This document shows, piece by piece, positions 1 through 37,200 of a DNA stretch of 64,000 bases; within the stretch, counting starts at the first letter, position 1; every line of letters begins with the position of its first letter. The stretch comes from Lingula anatina. Taxonomy: Eukaryota > Animalia > Brachiopoda. Below the pieces are notes generated by a model that saw only the letters and a program-made list of their open reading frames with translations, ran no database searches and was not told the origin of the DNA. The stretch covers positions 15,686,001-15,750,000 of the forward strand of contig CM120645.1 of the NCBI GenBank assembly GCA_051362555.1, given 5' to 3'. The position numbers and the translations under genes were made by a program.

Positions 1-41
1 TCCTCTTTGGCTGGTTACAGAATGCTTATAAAAGGGCAGCA

Positions 42-1120
42 GTGCTGCAGAATAAGTCTCTATATTTCGGCAATGTCCAGTCAAATAGTTTGATATTTTG
101 CAGACTGTTAGCTTATCTTACGGTATGTGAACTAACGGCAGCAACTTGCCACACTATTGTTGCATTATGCCAGAATGGACTGAAGCAGACTGCTATTGCC
201 AAACAACTGCATGTGTCCCAGGGTGCAGTTTCTAACGTCTTACAAAAACACGCCCAGACTGGTACATTAACACAGAGACCACGGCCAGGACGTCCTAAAG
301 TCACCACCAGAAGGGTAGACCGCACATATGCTTCTGCGGTTATGTCGCAACAACCGGACAAAGACAACTCTTGCTGTAAAAAATGAGTGGCAAATTACCA
401 TTCAAAAGTATGTTTCTAGAACTCTAGTGAATGCAAGGCTACTTTTAGTTGGCTACCTCTATTAACAGAGCAACACCAACATCTGCGTCTGGGGTGGGCT
501 AGACACCATTTGCGGTTCCAGGCACAGCACTGGGTTCATGTTGATTTTTACAGATGAGGCAGGGTTTGAGTTCCACCACCGTGATGGCTAAATCAGTCAG
601 TAGGCTTCCAGACGAGTTACTGCACGAGGATTGTGTCACACTAGTGACTTGTGGCCGTGGCAGTATCTGTGTATGGGCCGGTTTCCACACTGGAGCCAAA
701 ACACTATTGGTGGCAATTGATGGAAACCTCAACCAGATAAAATAAAAGGACATTTTAGAGAATACTTGCTTGCAATTTGCAAGAAGGTGCTTCCAGGACA
801 ACTTCATCCTGCAAGATGACAATGCCCGACCACATGTACACCGTGCCCATGCAATGGCTGCTTTTCTGCAAAACCAAGAGGTAAACCAGTTGCCTTGGCT
901 GACGGAATTCCCCTGACATGAATTCTATAGAAAACCTGTGGGCATAAATCGCTAGCAGAATCAACAGCTAACCCGTCCAGCCTACAAATCGGCACAAGCT
1001 TAGGCAAGCTCTGACTAATGCGTGTAACACAATACTGGATCAAACTCTCAGAAACCTCTCTGCATGGATCCCTGGCCGAGTGAGGGCTCTGGTTGCAGCT
1101 AGAAGAGGCTGCATGCGTTC
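42..1120 (+). pseudogene. Decayed Tc1/mariner-family transposase (frameshifts and stops)
   Basis: N-terminal HTH-like IAKQLHVSQGAVSNVL...RPRPGRPKVTT; catalytic-domain fragments GRGSICVWAGF, FILQDDNARPH (about 823-853) and LPW..SPDMNSIENLW (about 890-942) spread over different frames. Confidence 0.85.
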
Positions 1121-3850: not shown

Positions 3851-4827
3851 GGGGGGGGGGGGGGGGGGGGGTGAGAGAGAAGAATAGCGTTGCAATGTCA
3901 GTCTCATCGTCAGAGTGATCTTTCTGTGAGAAATGCTTCAGAAATTTTTCCAACCCAGTATATGCAAAGAGGTGACCAAGTGATCTCAGCAGAGATCAAA
4001 TATGGCCGACCCACTAGAATGCTAACTGTTAACAGAACTCTCAAAGGTCTTGTCACCAGTGACAATCGCTGAAAAGTAGCACCGGTCTCACATCACTCTT
4101 GCTAGGTAAGGTTTGAGGAATTTTTCATCTGCATGACAGAGAGCTTATGGCTTCATGTGAATTGCTTAAGCGATCAAAGCTGAGCACTACCGACTCGGGA
4201 CAGTTCCCAAAATTTAGTGATCGCCGTGCAGGCCTTGAAAGGATATCAGTAATATTCGGCATATCCCAACACGTTCTTACCTGTATCTCAATAATCTCTT
4301 CACTAAATGCCATGAGGTTTACTTCAAATTCTGAATCATAATATGACAGAGTGTAGCAAAAGTGAAAAGATCAACACGAGTTTCGACATCATTACCTGCA
4401 TACGAATAATGTTACTTTCTATACAGCAGTGTCGAAGGGAATATTCACGACAGGGACCCTGGGAGGCAATTTGATTTTGTTGGACAATATAATGGAACTG
4501 AAAGTTTTTTTACTAATTGACCGATTGATACTGATGGATAATCAAACTACTGACGATATTTCAACGTGACCACCATGAGATACTTGAGACTCTAGCTCCA
4601 TCCCACTCCTCTGATGGTGTATATGCAGATTATGCTTGTTGCAAGATTGCCCAATCAAATTCAGTAGCAACTTTCATCTGTTAAAGCAACTGTCGTCAGT
4701 TAGATGATATGAAAATGTTTTACATATACCTAGTTTTGGCCTAACAGATAGTAGGAAAGCGCGTCTATCAGTGTAACTAATATGAAAAACAGAAATATAC
4801 TAAAGAGAGTTGAGATTTAATGTTTTA

Positions 4828-5051
4828 GGGTGCATTCTCAGAGATTTAGATCGATCCAGAGATTTAGATTTAGATCGACCTAACTCCTGGGGGTTCACGC
4901 TAAATTGCAGTCAGCCGAGCGCGCACCATAGTTAATTACCCCCTTACAGCTTTTAGTAGGCGGAACAGACGCTTAAGCCGGCTAAGCTGACAGTAATCTA
5001 GTGAGAATCCCCACAGGGATATATCGATCTAAAATCTATGGGAATGGGGTC
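4828..5051. mobile_element. PIF/Harbinger-type MITE
   Basis: Imperfect TIRs gggtgcattc / gaatggggtc; TTA target duplication (4825-4827, 5052-5054); empty site in copy B near 17980; near-identical copy at 6207-6432. Confidence 0.75.
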
Positions 5052-5099
5052 TTAGACCATTATGAAAATCAATGACGTCCCAAAACGTAGCTGTGCATC

Positions 5100-5225
5100 G
5101 ATTTATTGGACAAATAGGGAGTTTTCTGCCAAAGAATATGATTGGATAATTCATGTAAAGCAGTCACAGCCGACACTGAGTATTCTCATTTAAAGGTGCA
5201 GTCCGCCAAACGTTTCATCAGACCA
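5100..5225 (+). promoter_or_regulatory. Putative core promoter of secreted gene A
   Basis: Two ATTGG (reverse CCAAT) boxes near 5106 and 5141; TATA-like catttaaag 5187-5195 about 31 nt before Inr-like tcAgac (A5220); 83 nt upstream of the ATG; same layout in copy B. Confidence 0.45.
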
Positions 5226-5302
5226 ACAGACTCGATCTGACATCCAACAGACCTGCAATTTTCCAGAAATTAATTCATCAGCGGTAGAACTATCGTCTGA
5301 AG

Positions 5303-8300
5303 ATGAAGATCACAAGTACCATGCTCGTTTGTGTTGTTTTGATGATGGCGAAACTTTGTGCAGTCGGCGATGCTCGTAAGTACTAAACTTATCGTTTTAG
5401 CTGGATCGATCCAACTTTGCAGGAGATTTTCTCTAAGTGTTGGGGGTGGTCGGCTCATGCCCTAGTTAGATTCCACTTTACCAAAATAACACGATTCAGA
5501 GCTGGGCCTCCGAAGACGTGTGTTTTGACAGCGCCCCTTGCAGAGTTGAGGGCGGCTTTTAGAGTGTGTTAGGCTTCTCGCCTTTATTATGAGGAAAGAT
5601 CGTTTCTGATAGGTAGGTAGATAGGTGTCTTGTCTACCTAGTATGAGATTTATATATATATATAGGGTGCCCTGAAAAGGTCATTCCGTGATTGGTACGA
5701 TAGAGGCGTGTCGCCTGTTGAGGGAAGGGGGAGGGTGCACTAGTTGCAGATAGCAATATTTTCCATCTACAGTTCTCCGCTCTACCAACTGAGCTATCGC
5801 GAGTCGACCGCCGACTCTTGAGCCATTCATACCGTCCAGCTCGTATCCCATTTGTTGTGGAGGAGAACTCCTCAACAGGATAAAGCATCTTAGACTGAAC
5901 GGAGACACCTTTGCTGACCGCCTCCGTCCCTAAATGTTTTTTTTTTATCTCGGACTCTGCAGCTGATGAAAGTCACTTGTTGACCGAAAAGCGATTTCTG
6001 CAACCAGTCCACCCTCCCCCTTCCCTCAACAGGCGAGACGCCTCTATCGTACCAATCACGAAAAGCCCTTTTCAGGGCACCCTATATATATATATATATA
6101 TATCGGTATCTATAAATCTCATACTAGGTAGACGAGACACCTATCTACCTACCTATCAGAAACGATCTTTCCTCATAATAAAGGCAAGAAGCCTATCACA
6201 CTCTAAGGGTGCTTTCCCAGAGATTTAGATCGATCTAAAGATTAAGTTTTAGATCGACCTAACTCCTAAGGGGTTCACGCTAAATTGCAGTCAGCCGAGA
6301 GGGCACCATAGTTAATTACCCCCTTACAGCTTTTAGTAGGCGGGACAGACGTTTAAGCCGGCCAAGCTGACAGTAATCTAGTGAGACTCCCCGCAGGGAT
6401 AGATCGACCTACAAATCTATGGAAATGGGCTGTAAAAGCCGCTCTCAACTCTGCAAGGGGCGCTGTCAAAACACACGTCCTCGGAGGCCCAGCTCTGAAT
6501 CGTGTTATTTTGGTAAAGTGGAATCTAACTAGGGCATAAGCCGACCACCCCCATCACGTAAGTGCAATCACTGTTATTGGCTTAAATGCCAGACACAACT
6601 CTAGCTGCTAGGGGCTAATAAGCCGCGCGCACACGAAAGTGAATTATCCCCTAGCATCAAGGAATCGTGTCATACAATTAAACTGATTACACTATCAGCA
6701 ATTAAGCGGGGTTGGATCGATCCAGGTGGTACGATGTTTGAATCTTTATACATTGCTACAAGGTACTCATAGATTTAATATTAAGTACAGGGGCGATCCA
6801 GGATTATTTGATGGGGGGTCCGGAACGACAGGCCTCGGATGCGAAGCCGACCATCGCCCCCTTGGTGTGGGGTTTGGGGTCTGCTCAAGGGTCCTGTAAA
6901 CAGTGCCCTTTGGTACGGTTTAGAACTTAAAAAAAATGGCGTTTTAAACACTTTTATCTAAACACAGAAACTATATAACTTGTCTGCATCTATCCTTAAA
7001 AGTTCAGGTCTGTGTATTGCTTTGTGAAAGTTAAGTTTTCGCTGATTTATCTTTTTTCCTTTTCAACATGAAATGTTTTTCACTGTTCTGGTTCTCACCC
7101 AAGGGTTTCATTCTTTTAATCACCTAATCGATAATTTTCATATTTTTCACTGCAGCTCTGATGATAGAATCCCATTTCCATTGTTCATCTGGCATGCTGT
7201 TGTGTAAAAGTCATTTATTCATTCACTACAGAACCATGTGTTACATTACTAAGAAAATCACCCAGCCCTTCGGGCTTATAAGACGCTTAATGTACATAAC
7301 CGTTCTTGTCATTTATGATATATTGTGGCTATATATTTTGCGAGTACATTTTTGCTTTTTTTTTTCCTTCAGAGGCAGCGGGATGTTGTAAGTAGAACAT
7401 CAAACTTCGTATATTATGATCTACAGTTTGTTTCCAATCTATAGAGAGAAATCACACTGGTTTTATCATTTTTAAAGAAAGCGTTACAGCAATGAATTAT
7501 AGTTCACTTATCACGTTATAGGCTCTTTCAAAGTGCATAGCAAACAGGAAAACTTCATATTGTGAAATGTTGTGTATTTTGGTGTCGAAATAAAGATTTT
7601 TACTCAAATAAATCAAAATCTATTTAAAATGCATGCATTTTCAAAGTATCTCATCCTTTTTTAATTTTTCAGCTCAACTTCCACAACGGTGCTGTGAGTA
7701 TGGTATTGCATTAAGCGAGAAGTAAATTTAAATCTCAGTTATTTTCTGTCTGACAAGCTTTTATTTTATTCCATTAGATTGCATTTCAGTTATAAGGTAT
7801 GGAAATGCATGTTTTCCCGTGCTACAGTATTTATATCAGTAAAGACCGCAATCATTAAGTGGCATTAGGAGCCTCACAGATATAATGGTCATATCCTCGG
7901 GTTCATCTTCAATAAGCATACATAAAGTGTATTAAAAAAAACAGATAAAATGATGTAACATTATGCAGCTTGACATGTAAAAGGGATGAAGCTTATTTTG
8001 TGCTTTCCTTCTTTTTTGCAGCATATCCGTTAATTTTGCGACCGTTTTGAAAGTAAATTAAACAGTATGTTTTCACTTCCAGCGTACATTCAGGAAATCG
8101 AGTGTGACGGCACAACTCACTCGTTCTCCGGCAGCTATCATCCCACGGATGCGGATCTGACATCGCTGCGATACTCCATCACTTCCTATGGCAATAGGAA
8201 CATCGTTGTATCCACTTGCAACACCGCCGACTTCGACACACAACTGGCTCTTTTTGAGTGTTCTGCGTTAGTTCAAGTTGAATCAGCTTGGAATGGGACA

Positions 8301-8468
8301 TGCGGCAAATACATCCGGGACAGTCTGTACCACAATGACGACGCCACCGGGTGCGACATGACCTCTAAACTCATGATCCGTCCAATCCAGATAGAAAGTG
8401 GGACGTACATAATAGGTGTGGGCGCGTATAGTGTTGGCGGGGACTTTAACGTCACCATCTCTTGTTAG
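5303..8468 (+). CDS. Secreted cysteine-rich protein A (164 aa): signal peptide, two micro-exons and a PPC-like beta-sandwich domain
   Basis: Exons 5303-5375 (MKITSTMLVCVVLMMAKLCAVGDA, donor gtaagt), 7373-7387, 7673-7693 (donor gtgagt) and 8083-8468; all GT-AG and phase 1; 495 nt open to TAG; AATAAA at about 8488 and 8669; splice sites conserved in paralogue B. Confidence 0.75.
5767..5803 (-). pseudogene. 5' half of tRNA-Tyr(GTA), truncated
   Basis: Reverse complement ctcgcgatagctcagttggtagagcggagaactgtag has the A-box/D-arm and the anticodon loop CTGTAG; followed by intron-like atggaaaatattgct; no T-arm or B-box. Confidence 0.75.
5958..6002 (+). ncRNA. Minimal type I hammerhead ribozyme (Penelope-type)
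   Basis: tgcag-CTGATGA-a-agtca cttgt tgacc-GAAA-a gcga t-TT-ctgca: stem I tgcag/ctgca, stem II gtca/tgac, very short stem III; one A.C mismatch at the base of stem II. Confidence 0.65.
6207..6432. mobile_element. PIF/Harbinger-type MITE nested in the right inverted arm
   Basis: TAA duplication (6204-6206, 6433-6435); the left arm shows the empty site; same family as 4828-5051. Confidence 0.8.
6788..6927 (+). mobile_element. Partial MITE of the caggggcggatccagg family
   Basis: Matches the 5' part of 10396-10671. Confidence 0.55.
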
Positions 8469-8931
8469 AGATGCCATGGCCCAGCGTAATAAAACTGAGA
8501 GTGACTTGCTCGAGACCAGCAAAGTTGCTTAAGACTCCAGTTTTATGGCCAGATTTATTCCAGAACATATTAAGCTCATAAGCCAACACAGTCACAGATT
8601 TATTAACTGCAAAAAAAAAAAAAAAAATGATCAAGTTGAAATGACGATTGTATCTCTTCTTAAGTCATGAATAAAATGTCTACTGCTTTAAAATCTATTT
8701 CGTTAGTTTTATTTGAAAGCAAAACTTCACACTGATGTTTTATAAAGGAAAAATGTGTTCAATTTAAATTGTCATGAATTAAAAAAATTCTGTCAAAGGT
8801 TAAAATAATAATAATAACATATTTTCTGCAATTCCAACCCCGAGGTTGAGGTTTTTACAAAGAATGCAATCATCTCTTATTAATATATATATACGTCATT
8901 AGCATGTATAAGAAAAACAATATAGGTCAAT

Positions 8932-15844: not shown

Positions 15845-16510
15845 ACGCGCCCGCGTGTTTGGTCTTGGGGCACTAAAGGCCATAAGATATAAGCTCTTCG
15901 CTTTATTTTATAGAAGAAAATAAAACAATTGAACCAATATACATGCTTCATGTATTAGTAACAACCAATAAAAAATCTATAGCTGAAGAAAAATACACGC
16001 ATGTGTGTGTTTAACAGTTTAACTGTTTGACATTAAATAATGTATTGCTGTTTTAAATAACTTTACAACGTCTAAAATTTTAACTTCAAAGAGTGGTCAA
16101 ATGTCTGGAATGGACACAAACTAACTGTCTTATTATTGTGCATTTGTTGACACGATGTTTTTCCCACGTGCAACTACATAGAATGTGGGTACATTAGAAA
16201 GAATACATAATTGAGTAAACCCAACCTGCCAATGTGTTCTCATTATTCCCAGAAATGCGCTGCATGACGTCACGCCTAGCCCACTGCGCATGCGTGCATT
16301 TTTAATGAGATGCTAGATGAACGGGTTCGCGATTCGTGAATATTACTTCCATCGCGGAAGTGTGGGATGACATTGTTGTGCTGTGATTGGCTAGTTGAGT
16401 CACGTGAAGCCCTACTGTTGCGCCCTCGCGTATCGCGTGAATGCTGCGCATTTCTAGCCTTGTTTTTACCGTATTTACTTTGCAAGCAGATGCGTGTCTA
16501 CATAATATAC

Positions 16511-16724
16511 TCCCTGTAGGGAGTCTCACTAAATTGCTACCAACCTAACCGGCTTAAATGTCTGTCACACCCAGCAAAGCTGTGAGGGGGTAATTATCTT
16601 TACCCCCCAGCTGATTCGGTAGGTGTGACAGACATTTAAGCCGCTTAAGTTGATAGCAATTTAGTGAGACTCCCCAGGGAGTTAGACCGATCCAGAAGGA
16701 TCGATCTAGTCATGGGAACCCAGT
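16511..16724. mobile_element. Hairpin MITE related to the 4828/6207 family
   Basis: gggagtctcactaaattgcta..ggcttaaatgtctgtcacacc and its reverse complement; shared gatcgatc terminal motifs. Confidence 0.6.
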
Positions 16725-18024
16725 CATCAGCTACACCTGCGTTTTCTTTAAAATTTATTTATTTATTTTTTTTTTAATTTTGGGATAAAGGATACAAATA
16801 CACATGCAAAAACCTTCAGCAAGATGCATTTTTGACATGTAACCTTTTTTGATATTTAACGCAAAAGTTTAAACGTTTGAGTCACGGAGCACTATATGAC
16901 CAAACCTCCTTTTATTTGAACTGAACTTGCGTCCGCTTGGAGAACCATTTTGCCCGTCCTCGCAATCCGTGGCAGAAAATCGTATTCGGATGCGTTGCAA
17001 AGAGGTGTCCAAGTGATATCGATGATGTCTCCCAAGCCACCTCTCTTGGTCTTAATCACTCTTCATCGTGTGAACATGTGTCTATTAGTGTATGTAACTG
17101 TTAACAGAACTCTCAAAGGTCTTGCCACCAGTGTCAATCGCTGAAAGGATTCATAATAGCGAAGAAAGTAGCACCGGCCTCAGGTTTCTTTCCAGTGGGT
17201 CTCATCGTTCATAGACTCGCAAGTCGCCCAACATGCGTACAGGTAGCGTCTTGCTGGGTTACTTTTGACGAAATCTTCACTTGCAAACCTAACAGAGAGC
17301 TTTTGGTTTAATGTGAATTGGATAAAACGATCAAAGCTGAGCACTGCCGATTTGGGACAATTCCAAAAAATTACTGAATGCCGTGGCCTTGAAAGAATAT
17401 CAGTATTTTTCCACATCCCACCACGTTTTTACTTTCATCTCATTATTCCCGTCACTAAATGCCATGATGTTTACTTCAAATTCTGAATTATAATGTGGCA
17501 GTGTGTAAGAGGAGTGGAAAGAATAACTTATCAACACGAGTTTTGACATCATTACCTGCATACGAATAATGTTACTTTCTATTAAGCAGTGTCGAAGGGA
17601 ATATTCACGACAGGGACCCTGAGAGGCAATTTGATTTTGTTGGACAATACAATGAAACCGAAAGCTTTGTTACTAATTGACCGATTGATACTGATGGATT
17701 ATCTAACGACTTTCGATATTTCAACCATGAGATACTTGAGACTCCAGCTCCATCACACTCCTCTGATGGTGTATATGCAGATTATGCTTCTCGCAATATT
17801 GCCCATTCAAATTCAGCAGCAACTTTCATCTGTTTAAGAAAATGTCGTCAGTTAAATTGATATGGAAGTGTTTTAAATATACCTAATTTTGGCCTTACAG
17901 AAGGTAGGAAAGCACGTCCATCAGTGTAACTAACATGAAAAAATTAATATACAAAAGAGAGTTAATATTTAATGTTTTTAGATCACTATGATAATCAAAG
18001 ACGCCCCAAAACGTAGGCGCAGAT

Positions 18025-18150
18025 CGTTGTATTGGACCAATAGGGAGTTTTCTTTCCCAAGCAAATGATTGGTTTATTCCTCTAAAGCAGACGCAGCCGA
18101 CACTGGGAATGCTCTATGAAAGGCACAGTCCACCAAGCGTTTCATCAGAC
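18025..18150 (+). promoter_or_regulatory. Putative core promoter of secreted gene B
   Basis: ATTGG at about 18031 and 18068; TATA-like tatgaaag 18115-18122, 32 nt before tcAgac (A18147). Confidence 0.45.
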
Positions 18151-18219
18151 CAACAGACTGACAGCCAGCAGACCAGCAACTTGCCAGAAATTCATCAACC
18201 GTAGAACTATCGTCTGAAG

Positions 18220-18714
18220 ATGAAGATGACTAGACCCATGCTCGTTTGTGTTGTTTTGATGATGGTGACACTTTGTGCAGTCGGCGGTGCTCGTAAGTGC
18301 TAAACTTATCGTATACTAGCTGGTTCGATCCAGGAGATTTTCTCTAAGGTCGGGTTCCCATGCTTAGATCGATTCATCTAAACCCCCATCTTTTCAGCTC
18401 TACTGGTTTAGGTGAAGATAGCTAAAATAACAAACGTACAGACAGCCGGACGGAAGGGAGGGATAACAGGATCCCAGACTTTGTAACAAAAAAAAAAAAA
18501 TAGATAGATAGAATTTTAAAATATAACTCCAGGGAATGATTTTTGAGTTTGTTACACACAACTGTAAGCCTGTAAGCATTTTCCACCGTTGAAAGCCAAT
18601 AAAACGACACGGTTTCCTTGAATACATGAGACAAAGCCAGTGGCGTGTCGGGTTGAGGATGACAACGTGGCTTTCACCCCGAACGGTGTTTGGTATTTAC
18701 TGTAATACCTTTGC

Positions 18715-18757
<43 letters not shown>

Positions 18758-20697
18758 TCTTCGCTGAAGTCCATCACGCTAATTATTAGCAGTTTGTTAT
18801 TCATTTCGAAGACGCGTGTGTATATACAGTATCTTCTTTTTTATTTCAAGCAATGGACGATAAACCACCGGTGTGCGGGAATAATACACTATGCTGTAGG
18901 GTGGACAAAGAGAACGTGACTCGCTGCAAGAATATTCCCAGTGAAAAGGGTCAAGGTATATTAGCTTGTCCTTGGCCTTGGTCTTGTATTTGTGAGGAGG
19001 GATACGTGTTGGACCCGTATGTTGAGGATTCCGAAACTTGTGTTCCAGGTGAGAATGGCAAAGACTGCTGTAATGTGCATAATGATAAACATGTAAAAAA
19101 AGATGAGTCTTATACAGTTTAATCTAAACACGCTTTAATCTAAACACAGAAACTTACTTGTCTGCATCTATCTTTTAAAAGTTCAGGTTTGTGTATTGGT
19201 TTGTGAAAGTTAAGTTTTCGCTGATTTCTCTTTTTTCGTTTAGTGATTCAACATGAAACATTTTCCACTGTTCTGGTTTTTACCCAAGGGTTTAATTCTT
19301 GTATTCACCTAATCGATAATTATCATAGAATGTTTTCACTGCAGCTCTGATGATAGAAACCCCAATTCCATTGTTCATCTGGCATACTGTTGTGTAAAAT
19401 TTATTCATTCATTCATTAGAGAACCATGTGTTACATTGCTAAGAAAATCACCCAGCCCTTCGGGCTTCTAAGACACTTTTAAGTACATTAAAATGTACAT
19501 AACCGTTCTTGTCATATATGATATATTGTGGCTGTTTATTTTGCAAGTATATCTTTGTTTTATTTTTTCCTCAGAGGTACCGGGATGTCGTAAGTATAAA
19601 ACTTAGAAAATTATGACTTACATCAAACTTAGTAAATTATTATCTACAGTTTGTTTCCAATCTATAGATAGAAATCACACTGGTTTTATCATTTTTAAAG
19701 AAAGCGTTACAGCAATGAATTATAGTTCACATTTCACGTCATAGGCTCTTTCAAAATGCATAGCAAACAGGAAAACTTCATATAGTGAAATATTTTTTGG
19801 TGTATTTTGGTGTCGAAATAAAGATTTTTACTCAACTAAATCAAAATCTATTTAAAACGATGCATTTTCAAAGTATCTCATCTTTTTAATTTTTCAGCTG
19901 AAATTACAGAACAGTGCCGTGAGTATGGTATTGCATTAAGCGAGAAGGAAATTTAAATCTCAGTTATTTTCTATCTGACAAGCTTTTATTTTATTCCATT
20001 AGTTTGCATTTCAGTTATAAGGTATGGAAATGCATGTTTTCCCGTGCAACAGTATTTACATCAGTAAAGACCGCAATTAGTAAGTGGCATTAGGAGCCTC
20101 ACAGATATAATGGTCATATCCTCGGGTGCATCTTTAATAAGCATACATAAAGTGTATGAAAACAAACAGATAAAAATGATGTAACATTATGCAGCTTGAC
20201 ATGTAAAGGGGATGCAGCTTATTTTGTGCTTTCCTTCTTTTTTGCAGCATATCCGTTAATTTTGCGACCAATTTGAATGTAAATTAAAAAGTATGTTTTC
20301 GCTTCCAGCGTACATTCAGCAAGTCGTGTGTGACGGCACAAATTACTCGTTTTCCGGTAGCTATCAATACGTGGTAGAGGATCTGGCATCGCTGCGATAC
20401 TCCATCACTTACTATGGCAATAGGAACATCGTTGTATCCACTTGCAACGCCGCCGACTACGACACACAGCTGGCTATTTTTGACTGTGCTGCGTTAGCCT
20501 ATGTTGAACCAGCTGCGAATGGGACATGCGGCATTGCCGAGGAGTACAGTTTGTACGACAATGACGACGGTAGGGGGTGCGGCCTCACCTCTCTACTCCA
20601 GATCCCTGAAGGCGAGCTAGCCAGTGGGACGTACATAATAGGTGTGTTCGGGTATCGTAGCAAAGAAGGGAACTTTATAGTCACTATCTCTTGTTAG
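18220..20697 (+). CDS. Secreted cysteine-rich protein B (231 aa): signal peptide, EGF/TIL-like domain, two micro-exons and a PPC-like domain
   Basis: Exons 18220-18292 (MKMTRPMLVCVVLMMVTLCAVGGA), 18851-19048 (VCGNNTLCC...SCICEEGYVLDP...TCVP), 19575-19589, 19898-19918 and 20309-20697; all GT-AG and phase 1; 696 nt open; AATAAA at about 20888. Confidence 0.8.
18713..18756. repeat. (ATT)n microsatellite at the end of a probable interspersed repeat
   Basis: Direct reading. Confidence 0.9.
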
Positions 20698-21032
20698 AGA
20701 TGCCATGGCCCAGCGAAATGAAACTGAGAGTGACTTGCTCGAGACTAGCAAAGTTGCTTAAGACTCCAGTTTTATGGCCAGGTTTATTCTAGAATATATT
20801 AAGCTCATAACCCAACACAGATTTATCAACTGCAAGAAAATAAAATGATCAAGTTGAGATGACGATTGTATCTCTTCTTAAGCAATGAATAAAATGTCTA
20901 TTGCTTTAAAATCTATTTCGTTAGTTTTGTTTGAAAGCAAAACTTCACACTGATGTTTTATAAAGGAAAAAATGTGTTCCATTTAAATTTTCATCAATTA
21001 AAAAAAATCTGTCAAAGGTTAAAATAATGATT

Positions 21033-25239: not shown

Positions 25240-28200
25240 CTGTAATTTACAATAAATTCACACAGTTAGCACCATCATGTTAAACCACCCATCAACAAAA
25301 ATATACACAGCACATATTATATGACATGATTAAAAATGGGCTCCACTTTTTTGAAACAAATATGTGCTCTGATGATACAATAAATTCCAGCATGAACAAA
25401 CTGCAATCAAAGGTATTTAAATAGCACACATTATCTTTGTCAAAGACACTTAACTGTACTTAAATTATGTAATTAGGTGAAAAAATTCAGTTTATTTCAC
25501 ACATTGCCATATTCTTATCAATATAATGGTCATACAGCAAGTCAGACATGTACTTGTTACCACAAACGGCATCAAGTCTCACAAATAAGGTTGGATTTCA
25601 TACAAAAATACTAGTGCTCAAAAAAAGAAGGGAATAAACAAAAAACTGATAGATCACTCAGGAATTTGTGAGAAGGCACGTTTGAGAGTAGTCACCAATG
25701 AATAGGCCTCGCCAAATGTCATTCACGAGAGTGGACGACTCACCTGCATCCTTGGTGTCCACAGAGAATTGAGCCTTCTTGTTGACCATGGCTTTCTTCA
25801 AGCCGTTGCCCTTGGCAGTGACCTTGTTGGCATCTGAGGGGAAGTGTGGGATTCTCAGGCGGTCAGCGCCAGTCTTTGTGGTGGTCTCCATACGCATGGA
25901 TGTGTGCTCTGTCACCTGTGAGGGTTGACCTGGGCCTGGAAAGTACAGGGATGAAATAATATACATAAATAAATATATTCAGAATGAATAAATATAGCCA
26001 AACATGTTGGCTTTTTATTTTCCTTCTCTTTTCCCCTTGAAGCCAATAAAATATATTTAGATATAACCAGTTTTGGATTAATTCCCAATATGTAGAGCAG
26101 GGCTGTTCATTAAGCCTGAAAGGTAGAGTGATCAATTTTAAAACAGGCCTTTCAAAAAATAAAGGTGCATGTACCAACATGCCTTATGGCATGCTGTTTA
26201 TCATGATATTAACATAATTGCTTTAAAAAAGTTATTCTTTTACATCAAGCAAATATGTATACACTGATAGAGATATGATAACTTAAACAAATGAGATCAT
26301 GTCACTTTAAAATTCAATATGTATCTATGATGGAAAAAAAAAGTGATTAATGATTGAAGAACATCAGTTGGCTAAAAGAAACCTTTTCAGACTGAGTTAA
26401 TGTCATGTTGTAGTATGCACCATACACGTGCCCACCATGTGCAAATTAACTTACAGTATTTAGTCCACCTTTTCTTAGGACTGTCATCCTTGTGTTCCTG
26501 GACTGAGAATGTCCATATTACATAGTCCTGCTTCATTGTTATAACTCTGTGTACATAAACTTAACCTTAATGGCCTTGCGATGTTCAAAATATGAAATAA
26601 CTTTTGGCAAAATCCAAGAATCCAATCCAATCCAACCGATTCCTTTCCTTTTTCACTTCAAGGTAAACTGTATCCAATATTAAAATGTCTCCATTAAAAC
26701 CTATCCTGCTTATCTTTCCAGCCTTCTCTGTTTATTTAGCTTATAAAATAACCCAAATCTGCCAAACTCTTGTGTTTCAAGGCAATTGATTCTATAGTAA
26801 TATTACATAGAGGATACTCGTAATCCAGTTTTAGTAAAATAAATATATTGGACTAAAAGAGAACTGCTCTACTGCCTCCACAATGTTCTTTCCACAGCTC
26901 AAATACATACACACATCCTAGTTACCCAACTGGTATTGATAAAAACTGATAGTCAACTTTTATCACTCAGTGAAATCAGTTATTTGTGTGGTTTCCGTGT
27001 CCTACAATCTCCTCAGCTGTGTGAGTGTCACTGAATTATAATGGAGACAGATTCATATCTGAGAGATCACAAACTCGGATACAATATAAGCCAGATGGTT
27101 GTAACTCAGCCAACTGTTTATATTACCTGCATATTTTCAACTGATTACGTAGGGGAGTTCACACCATAGGTAATTCAGTTACGACCTGAATCTGCTTTAT
27201 GCTATTAAATATAAATGGTTCATGGATGACACCATTTGAAATATAGGTACATAGCAGGTGGTAAAGCATGTAATCTCAATCTCATGCCAATGCAACCGGT
27301 TTAATGGAGACAAAATGTGTACCGTTCCAGACTTGGACTTGTGTGAACGGTGACATGTTGTATGAGTCAGAGAAGTCAAGTATACACTGTGCATACTGTT
27401 TGAAGGCACAGCCTGCTGATTTCTCCTGCTTTTTATTACAGTATCGCCCATTTTGAACTGAGGTAATAAATGACTCAGGTCTGTTGACAGAATGGGATTA
27501 TTACCTGGTGTACCTTGAGAATGTCGGAATTTAATATGGCAGCAACTATAAAAGAACTGTTATACTCTTTAAAAACTGTGATAATGGAGTACTGTTATGA
27601 AATCAGAGTATTTGCCAACATATGATTGTTTGTAAGGAAAGTTTGTATAATAATGTCATCACTTTCTTTTATTGGTAAATTTTATGCAAAACTGGCTTTG
27701 GCTGATAATTTTCTTCAGCAACACTGTTTTTTAATGTACAAAATATCACTTTATGTCTTAAACAGGTTATGAACGATGTGGGCAAAAATGCTGGCTTTCT
27801 CTTTTTCCCCTGAAGTCAAATGTGCCTTGCCAATCTTATCATATAAATTTCTGTTATCAAAAGCTCATTTATCTTCTGAGATTAGGTGACACATGTAGAA
27901 CAAGTTTATTCCACTCCATATTTGGTTGCTACACTGCCAAATTATTTTGTCATGTAAGCTATTATTGTACCAAATAGGTCAGCAATTTTACAAGTAGTCA
28001 AATATTATGAGGCATGAGAGTTGAAGAAAAGAGTATATTAGTCGTTTCTTTCTTTTCTGAAAAATACTGTGATGATTTACAAACAAATTTTATCAAAATA
28101 ACTATGAAACGTACTTTATATAAAAAAAAAAACTGCAAATGTTAACATCATAGTATCATAAATTTGATGATTTAATTTGAGATGTCATTTTTCATTTACA

Positions 28201-31200
28201 ACCAGTCTAGACAATTCAATATGTATTATTTAATGTTAGATAAACAATTTTTCAGTCAATATTAAAATTCACCAAAAACTGAAGTGTACATGTACTTCAG
28301 ACAGCAGATAAGTTGAACCTGCTTTATTTTCAACCAGTGCATTTAGCGCCCTATCCAGAATAGGGGACTAACTAGTCTGAGAGTTTAATATGGCTAACCC
28401 ACTGAATACGGGATATCCATTCAGCGTCTATTAGCAGATTAGATGGCAAGCTTTGTGGTGGGTCACCATCTTTGACCCTCAGACCCCCTTTTCTGAATGG
28501 GGCCTAAAATGATGACAACCACTGCATTCAACATCTCAACTACTGCATTCAAATATCAAATTCAGTGTTCCTTCCAGAGACTAACAACATCTGGTCTTTC
28601 CTTTTCAGTAAACTTGTGATGAATATGAGTATTTCTTGTAGGATCATGTAAACGGGCTTCCAACAAGTATTCTGCTATCAAAACAAGAAATCGGACATTC
28701 CTAGGAAATTGGGCGGTACGTGTCTAAAACATGCTCATGTACAAGGATGTGGAATTCGGATTCTTATCTCAAATGGTCTTTTAATTAGGTTTCTGGGATT
28801 ATGACTGAGCTTGCTCTCTACATGTACTCCTTCAGAGAGGAAAGGTACTAAAATTAAACACGACTTGTATCTTGACTCAATATTCATACTGAGTTTTGCT
28901 TAAAAAAAAAAAAAAAAAAAAAACTCCTAATTTTAGTACCAAAGTTTAGCGATCATTTCGTATGCGGATCTCTGGGTTTCAAAGGTTGGTTCTTATCTAG
29001 AATACCTCCACCCAATTACCACACATACAAGAGAGGTTCCTGTGGTTAATGGTACCCTTTATCTGTAACATCCACCTTGAATGAGATAAAAATACCTCTG
29101 AGGTAACCAACCTCATGAAAAGACTGGGCTAGTTTATCTCATTTTGAGCATGAAGGTTCCTTGTGTACTTTCTTGTGTGTATTAATTCTAAAGTCTGCAT
29201 TGAGGTTTTACATGTGTGTAGCATAACCATTTTAACATTGGAGATGTATAATTACTGCAAAACTAAAAGTACTATTAAGGTCACGGTCAAAATTAATACT
29301 GCCATATCATAAATTCAGGAACTATAAATCATTAGTATCAGCCCTTTTTGTTAAGCAAGACATCTAAGCTGTGCTATTCACAACATTTCGTTTTACTTAG
29401 ATTGCAGTAATTGTATCACTGGATATGTTCAATGACATGATCAGAAATGTCAATCCTATGTGGTGATATTAAGTGTTGCTTGATCCATTATCTCATTTGT
29501 TACATGGTTTGTAGTTATGAAGAAATCTGTCCATAAGATGATTTTGTCACAACTACAATCTTTTTGTGACCTGAACAACTTAAGAACTTCTACTGTATGA
29601 ACTTCAAAACGTGGTACACATAAATAAAGGCAACATTTTGGTATTCATAGAAAGAAGTGGAATAACGGAAACTTAATAGTTGTTTTTATCATCATATTAC
29701 ACATGATTTGTCCTATATCAGCCACATTACCTGTAATATTAGCCTTGAATGGACTTCCTACAATGTGGTAGTTGCCAGCAAACTTGATGGCGATAAGGTA
29801 ACCTCCAGGGGACGTGGGCGTGTATGAGAACTCGTAACCCTCTTCTACCTCTTTGCACTGTAGATCTACTTTGGATGGCCCATCTATTGTCACAGACAGG
29901 GCACCTGCTCCTGCATTCATTGTATTCACAATAAACTTAGCTACTTTGTCTGAAAAAGAAAACAGATAATATATATATATAATTATGTATACTGTAAGTC
30001 ACCATTTAGTTTGGCTGGATAATAGAAGAACTGGAAAAAAGAAAAAGAGAATTTCCCATGCAAATCTGATAAATGTACAATTAAAGTACCTTGCAAACAA
30101 TGACAGAGGCCTCCAAAATGCTGAGCCTGACTCTATTTTATTTAAATAATTCAAAGATGTCAGCTTTCTGGTCCAAAAGTACATATAATATCTGTTTACC
30201 TTCTGTCTTTTAGCATGCCAAAGATAAATCCACCTGAACCTTTTCATACCAGGTCTTCTTTATTCCATAAAGTAAGCTAGACAATTATAAAATGTTGAAT
30301 ATGGCAGCACTTAAGAGAACTTACTTGTCTCTCCCTTGACCAGTCCCTGACCATAGGCCTGAACCATGCCAGGATCAGCGTCCAGTTTGCCTACCATGAC
30401 AACAAATGGACTGCCTGGGATGTGGTTGCCGTTGTATAGCACATGGATGTAATGGCGGCCATTTTCTCTGGGGATAAACCTAACAGCATAGTGGCCTGGA
30501 GGTGAGAGACAATAGATAAAAAAGTGTCGAATTAATGTAAAAGTAAAGTTTTAAAACGTGAAGCAAATCTTCTAAACAACATCGATAAATATATGGCATA
30601 GTGATGCAGACTTTACACTTAACAAGTGTGGCTTTAATTTTGGTTACTAGTCAACAATGCTTTCCACCCCCGTTTTGTTTGAGTAGTTTAAAATGTAATC
30701 TGTTAAATAAATATCCATGCATTCCACTAGGTGCTAAGTTGGGTTCAACTTGGCAAGTTTGGAAAAATGCCCTTGCCTTCATCAATCTCTTGGATGAACG
30801 CATTATCTTCGGCACCAGATGGCGCAGTTACTCTGGCTTCAAGACGTCCCACCTTGGCTTCATTCAAGTTAACAGAGAATGTGCTTGGTTTGCCAATCTG
30901 AGTACAGAAAGGAAAAAAAAACATGAAACCAAATGAAAGTGCATTTGATACAAGACCAGTGACCACTTATCTGAATTTGAATCTTTGTATTTCCTTTAAA
31001 AAAAAATCACAGGTTTTTACAAAAATTATGTACTGCATAACATTCAGGCTATTCCATAAAAATACAGTATCAATTAAAAAAAAAAAAAACTTGAAAAACT
31101 GTGATTGAATTTTAAGCCAAATCTCTTTGTACTCCGGGTTCGCCCTAAATTCTGGTAACTCTTCACATCCAAGTGTGTCCCACTTATCAGGAAGTAGTAA

Positions 31201-34200
31201 CCTATTAGACTCTTACCACAAGTCCCGCCTGTTCTAGACTTGCTACAGTGACCGTCTTGGCCTCTCCACTGGAGGCTGACATGTACACTTTGAATGGAGA
31301 GTCAGGGATGTGCTCATCATTAAACTTGATAGACACCATGTATTCACCTGAAACAGATGGAATTTTTTTTTCATTTTGTTTCTGTATTCTTTTTTTTTCA
31401 GAATATTTTTTTTTTTGTTCACAATAAACATCCTGAAGATTTAAATTTTTTTGAAGAAAGTATAAATCATAAGAAGTACTTTCATCTGTAATTGGCAGCA
31501 CATATAATTGTTAGTACATTTTTAAATTCAAAAATTGAAAAAACTTACTTATTCATACAACAAAAATGAGCCTGCATGTAGATATATTACATAAAGCTTC
31601 TCACTTCTTCCAATCCTCACTTTTGTCAAACTCAAATGTAAAACACAAGTCCATACATCAAATCATCCATGTACTTTAGAGCTTATAGTTAATGCACAAC
31701 AATGTCGTACCAGGTTCTGTGCACTCGTAGGACACTCCACACGACCCGTCCTTGCGGTCTGCAAAGTCAATCTCTGCCTTGGATGGTCCTTCAATTGCAA
31801 TCGACAGACCTCCAGCACCTGCCTCACGTGTGTAGATGTTGAATTCGCCTGAAATAGACGTAATAAATGTTTTCAGTTAAACTTTTAAAATACGTACCGT
31901 GCTCAACATTTTGGGGGTACTTTACTACATCTGATTACCCTTTTCCTTCTTTATTTTGCATGAATGAAAAAAGAACGGTTTTATAATCAACATTTTCAGT
32001 TAGGTAATAGTTCAAAATACAATTAGATTGCCTTTAATCATTTACAGCAATATTCTGACAGTTAAAATTAAGTGAAACATGTTTATTTCTTTAATTTACT
32101 CATCACATTTCAAATATCAAATTATTTGCATTGAAACATAGGTATGATGCCATACAAAGATGTGATAATATATAATTATAATACTTACATTTCTCGTTGA
32201 CCTCTCCCTTCTCCAAGCCAGGGCCAGCAGCATGAACCTTGTGTGAGCCGCCTTCTGTGATAGGACCAACTGTGAACTGGAATGGGCTGCCTATTTTGGG
32301 GAAAGGAGAGGAGAAACAATGTAAGTGAGAAAAACACGCCCCTCTTATTCCCCTATATAAATGGACTTTAAAATGTACTAGTTTTACAAATGAATATTTC
32401 AATATGTTGCATGATGTATAACTTTAAAATAACACATTCATTCTGCTTCTCACTCTTAGAAACACTGGGATCATATATATAACAAATTCACATTAAAAAC
32501 AAAGATCCATCAAAATACATGCAAACAGAATGCAAAAATATACCGGCTAGAGTATACATAACTATAATTGCAAATTGACTGAGTGAGCTTTCTTACTAAC
32601 CAGGTATATGCATATCTTTGTGTTTCACGCTAACAGTATGGACTCCCATTTCCTTGGGGATAAACTTGATGCTATAGTGGCAGTCGTCCAAGTCGATGAT
32701 TTCACACAACTCGGTCACTCCAGATGGACTGGTCACTGAGGCATTCATGTCCACAGGGCTGGAGCCTACAATTACAGTACAATAACATGACAATGTGATG
32801 GTACAAAACTATGTGTGAAGATACAATTACTGTACAATACCATGGCAATGTGATGGTACAAAACTATGTGTGAAGATACAATTACTGTACAATAACATGA
32901 CAATGTGATGGTACAAAACTATGTGTGAAGATACAATTACTGTACAATAACATGACAATGTGATGGTACAAAACTATGTGTGAAGATACAATTACTGTAC
33001 AATAACATGACAATGTGATGGTACAAAACTATGTGTGAAGATACAATTACAGTACAATAACATGACAATGTGACAGAACAAAAGAGTGTGAAAAGATACA
33101 ATTACAGTACAATAACATCATTATGTGATGGTACAAATGTGTGTGAAGATAAAATTACAGTACAAAAGCAATACAGTTAATTTTTTTTATAATAATCAAA
33201 TTACACATATACATCCATATTGAAGTATGAACTTCAATAAATTAACAGATTTCAATTTATTCTTGTCAAAGATGTTGTCTCCATTCTATCATGTTGCCAC
33301 AGATTATGCAACTGTTCAAGATTTAAGGTCACTTTACACTAACTCCTCATAGGAAATCTTAATCAAACTTGTCCTAAATTTTAGCCAAGCTCTGATCTTT
33401 ACCTGGGATCTTAAGGCTAAGTTCACACTGGCTCCCGACATGTGTGACATCCACGGCCTGCGCCTGGCGCATGATCTTCTCCACCAGCTTGTCTGATGGC
33501 TCTCCGCGGATCTTGACAGCAAATGGACTGCCTGAAAGCAGAGACAGGGTCAAGGTCACACAAAGCCCTTTATATAGGTCAGGGTCATCCTCCCAAGGTG
33601 AAGGTCATAGAGGCAAACTTAAAAGGCCACATAAGTATGTTGTAAACTTAAATCCTAATTATCTGTATAAAATGGAATAAAAACAAGAAATATGCATACA
33701 TCTCTCTGAAATTATTTTATCTTCAAACCTATGGTTTACTTATAATATGACAAATATGTCTTATCTTAACCATAATGTGCTTAAATATAGAGGCACATTC
33801 ATTCATATATCCAATAATATCTTCATCTATTACTTATTATTATTAATCTTTTTTACAGCATGCCATCTAAAAAAGTCACAAATTTTAGTGTCCATCCCAG
33901 TTGAAAATATTGAACTCGAAGAATAGAATTTTCACCCATAAGAAAAATAAAAGAACTGATTAAATTAAGACTGAAAAAAATCACTTCCTGAATGAGGCCC
34001 TGATTTGATTGTAACTGTTTGTGCTACCATTTGTACATGCATTCTAAAAGAAATGTCTGTGCTGTTAATATAAAATGTGGGTACAGAACTGGACCAAATC
34101 TGTTCAGGATTTAAAAAGGACTGCAATGCATTTATAATCAGCTTGTTTTTGTTATGAAGTTAACTTGGGTTGTTCGTTGGGGTGGCTCACATCAAAGGTC

Positions 34201-37200
34201 GCGTTTACACTGCATACAGGTCAACCACTTTCCAAGGGTCTCTACTCTATGGGGCATCTAGTCTAATTATGTTCAGTGTAAATGCGACCTCAATGTAAAT
34301 GCAAACCTCTGTGCCTGATAACTCTTTACCATAACCCTCCCTTTCTCTCTCTCTCTCTCTACCTTTCTCTCTCGGCCTAGTGGTCTACTGGGTAATCCTC
34401 TACAACTATTCTACTTGGTTGTTGAAGAAAACTTAAAAATTTGCTAGTTACGAAACCCTGAACCCAAGTTGGATAAAGTATTACAAGGTTCTCAAGACAG
34501 GTGTATTCTGAAGAAGATTGAACTGTGTTGTCTAATCAAAACTGTAGTTGAACGTTTTTTTACTGAAATTCTACAGGTTTTATTCTTTCTTCTAAAGAAC
34601 AAACCTGACTTTCCAGTGAACCTTTATGTAAACCTTCTAAATTTTGAAGAGAATTATTGAAAATAAGTGAATCAGACAAATGGCAATACCTTACCCGGAA
34701 TTTCAACTTAAAATAAGAACAGGCTAGTATTAGGAGATATTGTACATATTAGCTGCTGCATATATATTGGGTGATATTTGTTTTAATAAGTGAAACAGGG
34801 CACAGTTTTTACAAAAGGAAGGTCTGAACAAATCTTTGGAAGATAGAGATATTTAAGTCAAAATACTTTCGCAAACTTCAAAGAAAATTGCCAACAAAAG
34901 TTGTTGTGGGAGACATGTATGAAAATCCCCCTCCTTTAAAGAAAAACTTAGCAGATTAACAAAACTACTTTATTCTATAACAGTAATAACAAAAAACACC
35001 TACACAACAACAACCAACGTTTCAACCTCACGTCTACCAAATCACACTGGACTGGTGTTATAACATCAGGTGTTTTACGCTAGCCTTTCCCAATTTCTTT
35101 TATTTCTTCTCTAAACACGTAAAAGTCTATCGAAAGGTCAAAGTGATTTCTACAGGTGACCCAGGGTCGAGGCTCTGTACTGAACTTTACCTTAATAAGG
35201 CACAGAGATACTGAGGCATATGTGGCAACCCAGGATACCTATTAAGATACTGTTGCTGGAGAGTGATGAAGTCAAGTAAGCTGAAGCAATGCTTTTTTTT
35301 TTCTGTTTTGAGAATTCCGAATCAGTTTTAATTATCTGGAGTGATTCTCTTATGCCTAATATCTGTGTATGTAGGTTAGTTGATGCAGAATTTCCAAAAT
35401 ATTGTACTTTTTTATTCAAATGGTCTTCTTTGTTTTATATATGTTCTTTAAATGTGCTTTTTCCACTGCTGTTAAAATAATTTGTTAGAGATCTTGTTTG
35501 TGCGTGTGTAGTGCTGATTTCATCAGTGTTTCTATGTTTACAGTTGCTGTTGTACTAAGCTCAAACTAGCATTTAACTTTCTCTTTTTTTCTCTTTTGGC
35601 AAATACAGAGACACTTCAGAATTCCTGTCTGAATAAAAAAAAGACACATTTTCCAAACTTCCATGAATTCAGCGAGAATGGTTAAAATTAGTCACACAAC
35701 TGAATTCAAACACAATCTTGCCAGTTGTGTTCACTGTGGATTCAGAGTAATAGACTGGCATGGTGGCATAAGATATGGATTTTTTTCAAGTTTTGCCATT
35801 TCAAAGAAAATACTGCACAAAATTTATCGTAAAAAAAAACAAAAAAAAAAAAAAAAAAAAAAAACATGTAAATACTGCAAACTACAATATAGGTTATCTC
35901 AGCAGAAAAGTGAAAAAATCTTTTTTGAGTGTGATCAACATTTGACAAAAAAACTGAAAATGTAGTGCTATAATGGGTGATGGGTATATTTATTTTGAAG
36001 CACGTCCAACCTTTTTGCACCTTGTTATACCAGGCAAAATGTTTGTCCAGGCCAGCACTCCTACAGAGCAGCGTCCAGTCACAAATTTGGCCTTGGCTTT
36101 TTCCAACTAAGATAACCAGATGACCAACTGGCTTGACCAGTAATCAAAGCGCACATTCAGAACAGCGGACTAACAGATCCACGGATCAAATATGGCCGAT
36201 CCACTTGAATACGTGTTGCGAAGTCCCCATATGGAATCTATTCAGTGTCAAAATGTTGAATAAAGCAGCAAGCTTTTTAGTAGGTTGCCATATTTGATCC
36301 GCGGATCTGTTAGTCTGCTGTTTTGAATGCCCCCGCTGGGCCCTGACAATTTTCTAACCTTTAAACACAGGTGATGTTAGTCACTTATTGCTTAACACTT
36401 TTATTTATCATTTTTTTTTATTAAGACAATTGTCCTAATGGAGGGCAGTCTTTAATGAGCTCCCTCTAGGTACAGAGTACTAGATCACCTGTACATTAAC
36501 AGATCATCTGGTGGCATTGTTTAGACCAAAACCGTTCTCGGTATAAGGTTAAGAGCTGTCTGAATACACCTTCAACAGTTTTTTCTTTGCCATTTAGACA
36601 GAAGAAAATTAATGGGCTTATACAGACGTAGATCTGGATAAACTACCATTTCCTGGTGTTTTAAATCAGGTTTTGATAAAATGTTCAACTGCTGGTTGCC
36701 AGGAATCTGACACATTTTACTGCTCTCAGATGCTGCCTATATATTTCACTGCACATTTTATTGGCTTTATGGATTTGGGTAGATGTAAAAATCTTAGGCT
36801 CATTTTTGGTTTGGAAAATGCAGAGGCAGATGAGGAATTATGTTACACATCCACTACCAAAATGATTTCGGGGTGGAGGGGGGGGAGGGGGCAGACAACA
36901 TTACAGCAGAAAATCCCCTACTAAAACATGACACTGTGTATTAGAAAAGGATAAAGATGGATAATCAGAAGAGGTTCACTGAAAGTTTTTATCCTCTCAT
37001 AGGCATATGATAATTGGGTGAAAAATTCATGCTACCTTTCTGGCTTAAACTTGAGCTTAGATTTAGCATAAAGCTGTGTTTTTTCTTCAACCAACAGCTA
37101 TAGTACTGAAATCATTTACCTCTCACAATATGTTGTCTAACGAAAAATAAATTCATAAGGAAATGAGGATATCCAGGTAGAAAGACACACACACTCGTAT

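What the first reader, a model, noticed from the sequence alone, without database searches (positions are those of the whole stretch)
5437..5803. tRNA-Tyr 5' half fused to a retroelement exactly at its hammerhead cleavage site
Seen: read on the - strand, the left arm is tRNA-Tyr 5' exon (to CTGTAG), then intron-like atggaaaatattgct, then at, then ctgcaactagtgcaccc. Homology with the right arm starts at t|ctgca, the predicted hammerhead cut (between 5997 and 5998). Established: hammerhead cleavage leaves a 5'-OH; tRNA endonuclease leaves a 2',3'-cyclic phosphate; RtcB joins such ends; tRNA-Tyr genes are the typical intron-bearing tRNAs in animals. Inference: a fossil of RNA ligation, or of an RT template jump, between a pre-tRNA splicing intermediate and a self-cleaved Penelope-like RNA. 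Targeted insertion into a tRNA gene is an alternative.
Basis: partly seen in the sequence, partly recalled or inferred. Interest (0 to 1): 0.7.

Follow-up and report, generated by a model that had tools for sequence, protein, structure and literature searches.

The report
Unspliced tRNA joined at ribozyme cut
Inside one two-armed jumping-gene insertion, a piece of an unspliced tyrosine tRNA sits within one base of where the element's small ribozyme is predicted to cut, likely because the copying enzyme ran off the cut RNA end and switched onto the tRNA precursor, a single-copy hint that such ribozymes do cut in living cells.

Summary
5440-6558 is one insertion with a 6-bp target duplication, made of two outward-facing copies (4% apart) of a high-copy, hammerhead-bearing, Penelope-like terminal repeat. 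The right copy keeps the ribozyme; the left stops at the predicted cut (±1 nt) and continues into tRNA-Tyr sequence. That piece is 5' exon + a complete 15-nt intron + the first 1-3 bases of the 3' exon, so it ends 2 nt past the 3' splice site and 17 nt past the 5' one: not a tRNA-endonuclease end, which weakens the 'splicing intermediate + RtcB' reading. It is not a family head (depth about 10,300 falls to 41.5) and the element did not land in a tRNA gene here. Best reading: ribozyme-cut RNA copied to its end, then a template switch onto pre-tRNA (0.4); copying from tRNA-gene DNA (0.3) and ligation (0.2) remain open. No genome was available, so recurrence at other copies and the origin of the 133-nt spacer are untested; two RNA runs showed no reads at the junction. 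New variant of known small-RNA/retroelement chimeras; one locus.

The parts
5434..5439 (+). left copy of the 6-bp target-site duplication (TAAGTG); its last 3 bases also match the element's 3' end
   Evidence: empty-site continuation seen in other copies of the target repeat
5437..5749 (-). left arm: terminal repeat from the first base after the predicted ribozyme cut (5749) to the family's recurrent AC-rich 3' end (5437)
   Evidence: 6 contigs of X1 and 10 of X3 end at 5437 with dissimilar flanks
5749..5751 (-). junction: A38 (5751), U39 (5750; also equals ribozyme H17), C (5749; first base after the cut, also C40 of a standard tRNA-Tyr)
   Evidence: 3' exon start from the mouse primer; bulge geometry
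5752..5766 (-). complete 15-nt tRNA intron; G third from its end (5754) can pair with C32, upstream bases pair with the anticodon
   Evidence: sequence read against the A-I pair and 3-nt bulge rule (PMC10539383)
5767..5803 (-). tRNA-Tyr(GUA) 5' exon, positions 1-37; identity to the mouse primer starts at position 5 (5799), positions 2-4 differ; position 30 is A
5804..5936 (.). spacer of unknown origin (tRNA-gene 5' flank, element sequence upstream of the ribozyme, or a third template); 52% GC; open frames on both strands without homologues
5937..5946 (+). run of 10 T upstream of the ribozyme
5952..6010 (+). type I hammerhead motif: helix I 5+5 bp with internal loop, helix II 4 bp, helix III 2 bp with 4-nt loop; predicted cut 5997|5998; 10.1/11.1 is A.C, not G-C, in this copy
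5998..6558 (+). right arm: inverted second copy of the terminal repeat, continuous with the uncut ribozyme
6207..6432 (.). later MITE insertion in the right arm, TAA duplication (6204-6206, 6433-6435); second copy at 4828-5051
6559..6564 (+). right copy of the 6-bp target-site duplication
5401..6725 (.). the host repeat that was interrupted: 15-bp inverted ends at 5401-5415 and 6711-6725

Best explanation
The tRNA piece lies inside one two-armed insertion of a hammerhead-bearing repeat, and it was likely captured when the reverse transcriptase reached the ribozyme-cut 5' end of the element RNA and switched onto an unspliced tRNA-Tyr precursor. Steps: (1) shown: one event, because a 6-bp duplication encloses both arms and the tRNA piece; (2) inferred from PMC11167929: both target strands were nicked and each primed a cDNA at the element's AC-rich 3' end, giving two outward-facing arms; (3) inferred: the right cDNA read an uncut RNA through the ribozyme, the left cDNA read a cut RNA and stopped at 5749; (4) inferred: its 3' end paired through 1 nt (C40 or the shared T) with pre-tRNA just 3' of the splice-site bulge and copied U39, A38, the intron and the 5' exon; an unspliced precursor would lack the base modifications that stop reverse transcriptases in mature tRNA (own knowledge); (5) inferred: the two cDNAs were joined in or beside the spacer. 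The product is a dead fossil: no B box, no tRNA 3' half.
For: Single insertion with 6-bp duplication; other copies of the target repeat run from 5439 straight into sequence matching 6565-6594 at 26 of 30 bases (6 contigs X1, 13 contigs X3, 6 reads X10). Join within +/-1 nt of the cut; about 0.9% if truncation were uniform over 330 nt (post hoc). Same orientation of tRNA and arm, as expected for template switching or ligation and not for twin priming (10.1101/2025.02.02.635956). tRNA end is not at either splice site and overlaps the element by 1-2 nt; 1-3-nt microhomology marked the RT-made, non-ligated U6/L1 products in PMC6789731. Junction is single-copy level (41.5 against 10,328 in X1; 0 against 2,234 in X3). 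A purified Penelope-type protein cuts and extends both strands and starts at AC-rich internal sites.
Against: One locus only; no genome, so no second junction was examined. A 1-2-nt overlap arises by chance in roughly 16-44% of joins (own arithmetic), so it does not separate switching from ligation. Whether the spacer is tRNA-gene flank is unknown; if it is, a short pre-tRNA cannot be the template. The only ribozyme copy seen has A.C at 10.1/11.1, U at position 17, folds no better than shuffles (z -1.49) and has no Rfam hit. No RT or endonuclease of the family was found. In the anole element no RNA reads began or ended at the cut and uncut RNA was the main substrate; here 0 of 151 (X10) and 0 of 55 (X13) laid reads reached 5718-5764 and no pile of ends was listed.
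Confidence: 0.4

Rival explanations
1. DNA-level capture: the cDNA ended at the ribozyme cut, then its 3' end copied about 50-190 nt from a tRNA-Tyr gene (exon, intron and upstream flank) before joining the other arm; or an earlier copy inserted into a tRNA-Tyr gene elsewhere and the flank was carried along in a later jump. The ribozyme cut still defines the element side, but no RNA-RNA event is needed.
For: Explains the retained intron and an end that is at no processing site without extra assumptions; the spacer has no match to the element, to Rfam or to proteins and could be gene flank; position 1 of the exon is C, the usual first base of eukaryotic tRNA-Tyr.
Against: Positions 2-4 of the exon differ from the mouse sequence, which may mean the tRNA copy stops at nt 5 with no flank; the spacer has a + strand frame ending in a stop 30 nt before the ribozyme core, as an element's own ORF end would (weak, not significant). 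No direct evidence.
Confidence: 0.3
2. RNA ligation first: RtcB (tRNA ligase) joined a pre-tRNA fragment with a cyclic-phosphate end at U39 to the 5'-OH ribozyme product; the chimeric RNA was then reverse-transcribed.
For: Sense orientation; element side fits the 5'-OH end; RtcB joins such ends for U6/L1 and circularises hammerhead-cut animal retrozyme RNAs in vitro (PMC7229834); earlier scan notes report U6 at Penelope ribozyme cuts in another genome (unchecked lead).
Against: The donor end is 2 nt past the 3' splice site and 17 nt past the 5' site; reported 5' pre-tRNA-Tyr fragments end at or beside the 5' exon end. A 3'-site splicing intermediate would need two added bases that equal A38-U39 by chance (1 in 16). 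U39 is base-paired in the precursor. No chimeric read seen (shallow).
Confidence: 0.2
3. Coincidence: the left cDNA was truncated near the ribozyme for an unrelated reason (stalling at helix I) and joined to the tRNA sequence; the ribozyme never cut.
For: Join is only resolved to +/-1 nt; the finding was selected from many windows; the ribozyme copy seen is imperfect; uncut RNA is the main substrate in vitro.
Against: About 0.9% under uniform truncation; a stall at helix I would be expected at its 3' side (6010-6002), not after the strand had been copied.
Confidence: 0.07
4. The tRNA piece is a fixed head of a tRNA-derived SINE family.
For: tRNA-retroelement fusions give rise to SINEs (passage).
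Against: Depth falls about 250-fold exactly after 5750 in X1 and to 0 in X3; no B box; the right arm carries the ribozyme at this place. Caveat: the laying tool drops records that resemble human DNA, which may include tRNA-bearing contigs.
Confidence: 0.03

Closest known systems
tRNA/LINE-1 chimeric insertions (Law and Burns, 10.1101/2025.02.02.635956; abstract, outline and passages read)
   Same: 5' tRNA fragment co-inserted with a retroelement inside one target-site duplication
   Different: There 21 human loci, tRNA halves (nt 1-37), mostly antisense, ascribed to twin priming; here sense, unspliced precursor with intron, Penelope-like partner, join at a ribozyme cut
U6/LINE-1 chimeras made by RtcB ligation (PMC6789731; passages read)
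   Same: small Pol III RNA 5' of and sense to a retroelement fragment with an expected 5'-OH end
   Different: U6 ends at its natural cyclic-phosphate end; the tRNA piece here does not end at a known such end; L1 has variable breakpoints, here the breakpoint is a ribozyme site
Penelope-like elements with inverted pseudo-LTRs and minimal hammerheads (PMC8557442 passages; PMC4209133 parts 1-2 of 4; PMC11167929 parts 1-2 of 4)
   Same: type I hammerhead with short helix III and an extra base after A9 at the start of the terminal repeat; inverted copies a few hundred bases apart; AC-rich 3' ends at both borders
   Different: no RT/GIY-YIG frame in this copy; a captured tRNA fragment between the arms was not found in the passages read
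Animal non-LTR retrozymes (PMC7229834 passages; 10.64898/2026.07.22.740005 passages)
   Same: non-coding repeat of a few hundred bases with a type I hammerhead; RtcB acts on such cut ends in vitro
   Different: retrozymes are head-to-tail tandems; this is an inverted pair with a target duplication

Membership tests
Type I hammerhead ribozyme | core CUGANGA...GAAA...UH with helices I-III | tested here: met
   1 hit in the window, 0 in 30 shuffles; pairings listed
Type I hammerhead ribozyme | G10.1-C11.1 closing pair of helix II | tested here: not met
   A.C in this copy; conserved G-C per PMC4209133; family consensus not seen
Type I hammerhead ribozyme | match to an Rfam hammerhead model | tested here: not met
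   no hammerhead family among 8 and 2 weak matches
Type I hammerhead ribozyme | self-cleavage activity | not testable with these tools
   no pile of read ends listed in two shallowly covered RNA runs
Penelope-like element | ORF with telomerase-like RT and GIY-YIG endonuclease | tested here: inconclusive
   no RT or GIY-YIG Pfam hit in 81 of 86 listed frames of 80 aa or more scanned (two more; three microsatellite-rich frames left out); this copy is terminal repeat only and the family's coding part could not be reached
Penelope-like element | hammerhead at the start of the pseudo-LTR, short helix III, extra base after A9 | tested here: met
   against PMC4209133
Penelope-like element | inverted 5'-truncated copy forming terminal inverted repeats | tested here: met
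   against PMC8557442
Intron-containing tRNA-Tyr(GUA) precursor fragment | A box, D arm, GUA anticodon, intron after nt 37, C32:intron G pair, 3-nt bulge ending in A38 | tested here: met
Functional tRNA gene | 3' half with B box | tested here: not met
   ARAGORN 0 genes; no B-box motif in the window
tRNA-derived SINE | tRNA head shared by family copies, with A and B boxes | tested here: not met
   depth 41.5 against 10,328 (X1), 0 against 2,234 (X3); no B box
RtcB-type ligation chimera (U6/L1 kind) | 3' partner starts at a 5'-OH end | tested here: inconclusive
   join within +/-1 nt of the predicted cut; shared bases blur it
RtcB-type ligation chimera (U6/L1 kind) | 5' partner ends at a known 2',3'-cyclic-phosphate end | tested here: not met
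   2 nt past the 3' splice site, 17 nt past the 5' splice site
RtcB-type ligation chimera (U6/L1 kind) | chimeric RNA exists apart from the genomic copy | tested here: inconclusive
   0 of 151 and 0 of 55 laid reads reach the junction; about 6 in 100 of each run read

The most novel reading that the evidence does not exclude
Ribozyme-cut Penelope RNAs are routinely joined by the tRNA ligase to broken pre-tRNAs (and U6) in the germ-line nucleus, so genomes hold a fossil map of in-vivo hammerhead cleavage and a route by which tRNA promoters become fused to Penelope 3' ends, the raw material for Penelope-driven SINEs.
Probability: 0.15. Interest if true: 0.7.

Novelty: new variant of a known kind. 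Interest (0 to 1): 0.42.

Why it matters
Whether Penelope hammerheads cut in vivo is open: they are weak in vitro (PMC4209133), and for the one element studied biochemically no RNA reads began or ended at the cut and uncut RNA was the main substrate (PMC11167929). An insertion whose two arms came from one uncut and one apparently cut RNA is a DNA record that cut RNA is used as template, and suggests a cheap genome-wide test (count 5' ends at the cut, list the partners). It also extends small-RNA/retroelement chimeras to an unspliced tRNA precursor. With one locus and the spacer unresolved it is a hint, not a demonstration.

Tried and rejected
No whole genome is held. Two exact-pattern scans of metagenome contigs and one of viral contigs gave 0 loci, so no other full copy could be read. 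No RNA holder was listed by the run search; this is no evidence on expression. The paralogous segment 17249-18348/19125-20226 shares the left flank up to 5437 but differs after it, so it is not a clean empty site. Idea that the spacer is the start of a sister element's reading frame (S-R-P-P-T-L like the arm's M-S-R-P-P-P-T): rejected as unsupported; 708 of 10,000 shuffles scored as well at protein level, 3,414 of 10,000 at DNA level (one search had this peptide in the wrong frame and that part is discarded; its whole-arm tests gave 403 and 248 of 2,000). Spacer frames: no Pfam family, no homologue, no Atlas hit, no Rfam family, folding z -1.46. The deeper protein search was never run because its queue was full. 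The bacterial promoter scan was uninformative. The stem drawn for helices II and III was mis-numbered; one search is the corrected one. Literature: searches listed no paper on tRNA or U6 fused to Penelope elements at the ribozyme cut (0 papers with all four terms); only titles and abstract starts were seen for most, subscription papers and preprint supplements were not searchable.

Full report
1. Observation. Two inverted arms face outward; apart from a later MITE and a TA tract they align with 300 matches and 13 mismatches. The right arm is continuous with a type I hammerhead motif (5952-6010, + strand): core at 5963-5969 and 5986-5989, helix I of 5+5 bp with an internal loop, helix II of 4 bp, helix III of 2 bp, predicted cut 5997|5998. 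A strict descriptor finds it once in the window and never in 30 shuffles. Weak points of this copy: A.C instead of G-C at 10.1/11.1, U at position 17, folding z -1.49, no Rfam hit. The left arm's homology ends at 5750, matching 5997.

2. The tRNA piece. On the - strand, 5803-5767 reads as tRNA-Tyr(GUA) positions 1-37; its last 21 of 25 compared bases equal a mouse tRNA-Tyr primer printed in PMC12239594, while positions 2-4 differ. 5766-5752 is a complete 15-nt intron: the G third from its end can pair with C32 and is followed by two intron bases and A38, the three-base bulge of the 3' splice site described in PMC10539383 (passages). The next bases, A, T, C (5751-5749), equal the start of the mouse 3' exon as read from the reverse primer. 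The tRNA ends at A38, U39 or C40; only the middle choice puts the element's start exactly on the cut. None of the three is a tRNA-endonuclease end: U39 is 2 nt past the 3' site and 17 nt past the 5' site. (Position 30 is A here; if that is the species' real base, position 40 would be U and the overlap is one base.) There is no tRNA 3' half or B box in the window.

3. One insertion. TAAGTG occurs at 5434-5439 and 6559-6564. In public contigs and reads, other copies of the interrupted repeat run from 5439 directly into sequence matching 6565-6594 at 26 of 30 bases (6 contigs in X1, 13 in X3, 6 reads in X10), which is the empty site. The interrupted repeat has 15-bp inverted ends at 5401-5415 and 6711-6725. 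Hence 5440-6558, with tRNA piece and spacer, arrived together, and the element did not land in a tRNA gene here. 5437 is a recurrent family end (6 contigs in X1, 10 in X3, dissimilar flanks), and the right arm ends at the equivalent place, so both borders are element 3' ends.

4. Not a family head. Summed contig depth is 10,328 (X1) and 2,234 (X3) at 5731-5743 and 41.5 and 0 at 5757-5764; the mixed bin puts the drop after 5750.0 and 5748.8. The junction thus exists in X1 at single-copy level; X1 holds 0.48 of the sampled words and may or may not be the source sample, and the tool drops human-like records, so absence in X3 is not proof of polymorphism. The drop does not show that other copies end at the cut: it is expected whatever follows. 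The listed loose ends (24 shown, 140 not shown) include none at 5750, so pile-up of 5' ends is untested.

5. RNA. In X10 (151 reads laid of 12.4 million records) and X13 (55 of 9.5 million), most reads were under 90% alike, none reached 5718-5764, and no place with many starts or ends was listed. About 6 in 100 of each run was read and X10 is poly(A)-selected, so this neither shows nor excludes cleavage.

6. Mechanism. Penelope-type insertions often carry an inverted truncated copy (PMC8557442), and hammerheads occur in their terminal repeats, sometimes as opposite-strand pairs 100-700 bp apart (PMC4209133). The purified anole protein cuts and extends both strands and initiates at AC-rich internal sites (PMC11167929). 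That accounts for two outward-facing arms (inferred). The right cDNA passed through an uncut ribozyme; the left stopped within 1 nt of the cut (about 0.9% under uniform truncation; post hoc). I put about 0.9 on ribozyme cleavage or its site defining the element side among the readings considered, and split the tRNA side: template switch onto pre-tRNA 0.4, copying from tRNA-gene DNA 0.3, ligation 0.2. Against ligation of a splicing intermediate: the donor end is at no splice site, and known 5' pre-tRNA-Tyr fragments end at the 5' exon border. For ligation: orientation, the 5'-OH end, and RtcB's known action on U6/L1 and on hammerhead-cut retrozyme RNA. The deciding unknown is the 133-nt spacer: nine tests gave it no identity.

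7. Relation to what is known. tRNA-fragment/LINE-1 chimeras are described (21 human loci, halves, mostly antisense) and U6/L1 ligation is established. I found no paper on a tRNA or U6 fragment at a Penelope ribozyme cut in searches, within a library that lacks most subscription papers. Two unchecked notes of this scan report U6 at such cuts in another genome; they are a lead and were not tested. The element works like a Penelope terminal repeat; membership is not proven because no coding region was reached. What I saw of each paper: PMC11167929 and PMC4209133 parts 1-2 of 4; passages of PMC8557442, PMC6789731, PMC12239594, PMC10539383, PMC7229834, 10.64898/2026.07.22.740005; abstract, outline and passages of 10.1101/2025.02.02.635956; no supplements. 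Hammerhead numbering, tRNA numbering, modification blocks to RT and the TAA/TTA = Harbinger-type label are recalled, not from a call.

8. Verdict. Real, unusual, single-copy. New variant of a known kind; interest 0.42. It would rise if a genome-wide count showed many partners at the cut.

Noticed in passing
window 4828-5051, 6207-6432, 16505-16692: MITE family with TTA/TAA duplications (Harbinger-type by that mark, recalled); two copies 92% alike, one in the right arm; a related palindromic copy near 16.6 kb
   Followed up: partly
window 4097-8591 versus 17249-20820: old tandem segmental duplication, 12-13 kb period, 82-94% alike, including paired 144/145-aa frames at 8034-8465 and 20260-20694 with no Pfam family
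   Followed up: partly
window 25661-37406 and 60173-60529 (- strand): exons with filamin repeats (Pfam PF00630)
   Followed up: no
window 50398-57153 (- strand): 2,251-codon open frame rich in P/R/D with 41-aa (123-nt) tandem repeats, lying between filamin exons: possibly a giant internal exon of a filamin-like gene
   Followed up: no
window 3-383 (+ strand): paired-box/HTH hit (PF00292, 6e-08), probably a transposase fragment
   Followed up: no
window 6059-6103 (+ strand): the arm holds a hairpin with a weak match to the histone 3' stem-loop (22 bits, below the cut-off of 34), between a CCAAT motif and a TATA tract
   Followed up: no
run X3, joint 5716 to 5436: one contig shows a head-to-tail junction of the arm family, as in partial tandems of Penelope-like elements
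   Followed up: no
window 5431-5439 and 6550-6564: both target ends resemble the element's own sequence just beyond its 3' end (near-palindrome around TAAG), hinting at homology-aided priming; rests on two discordant contigs
   Followed up: partly
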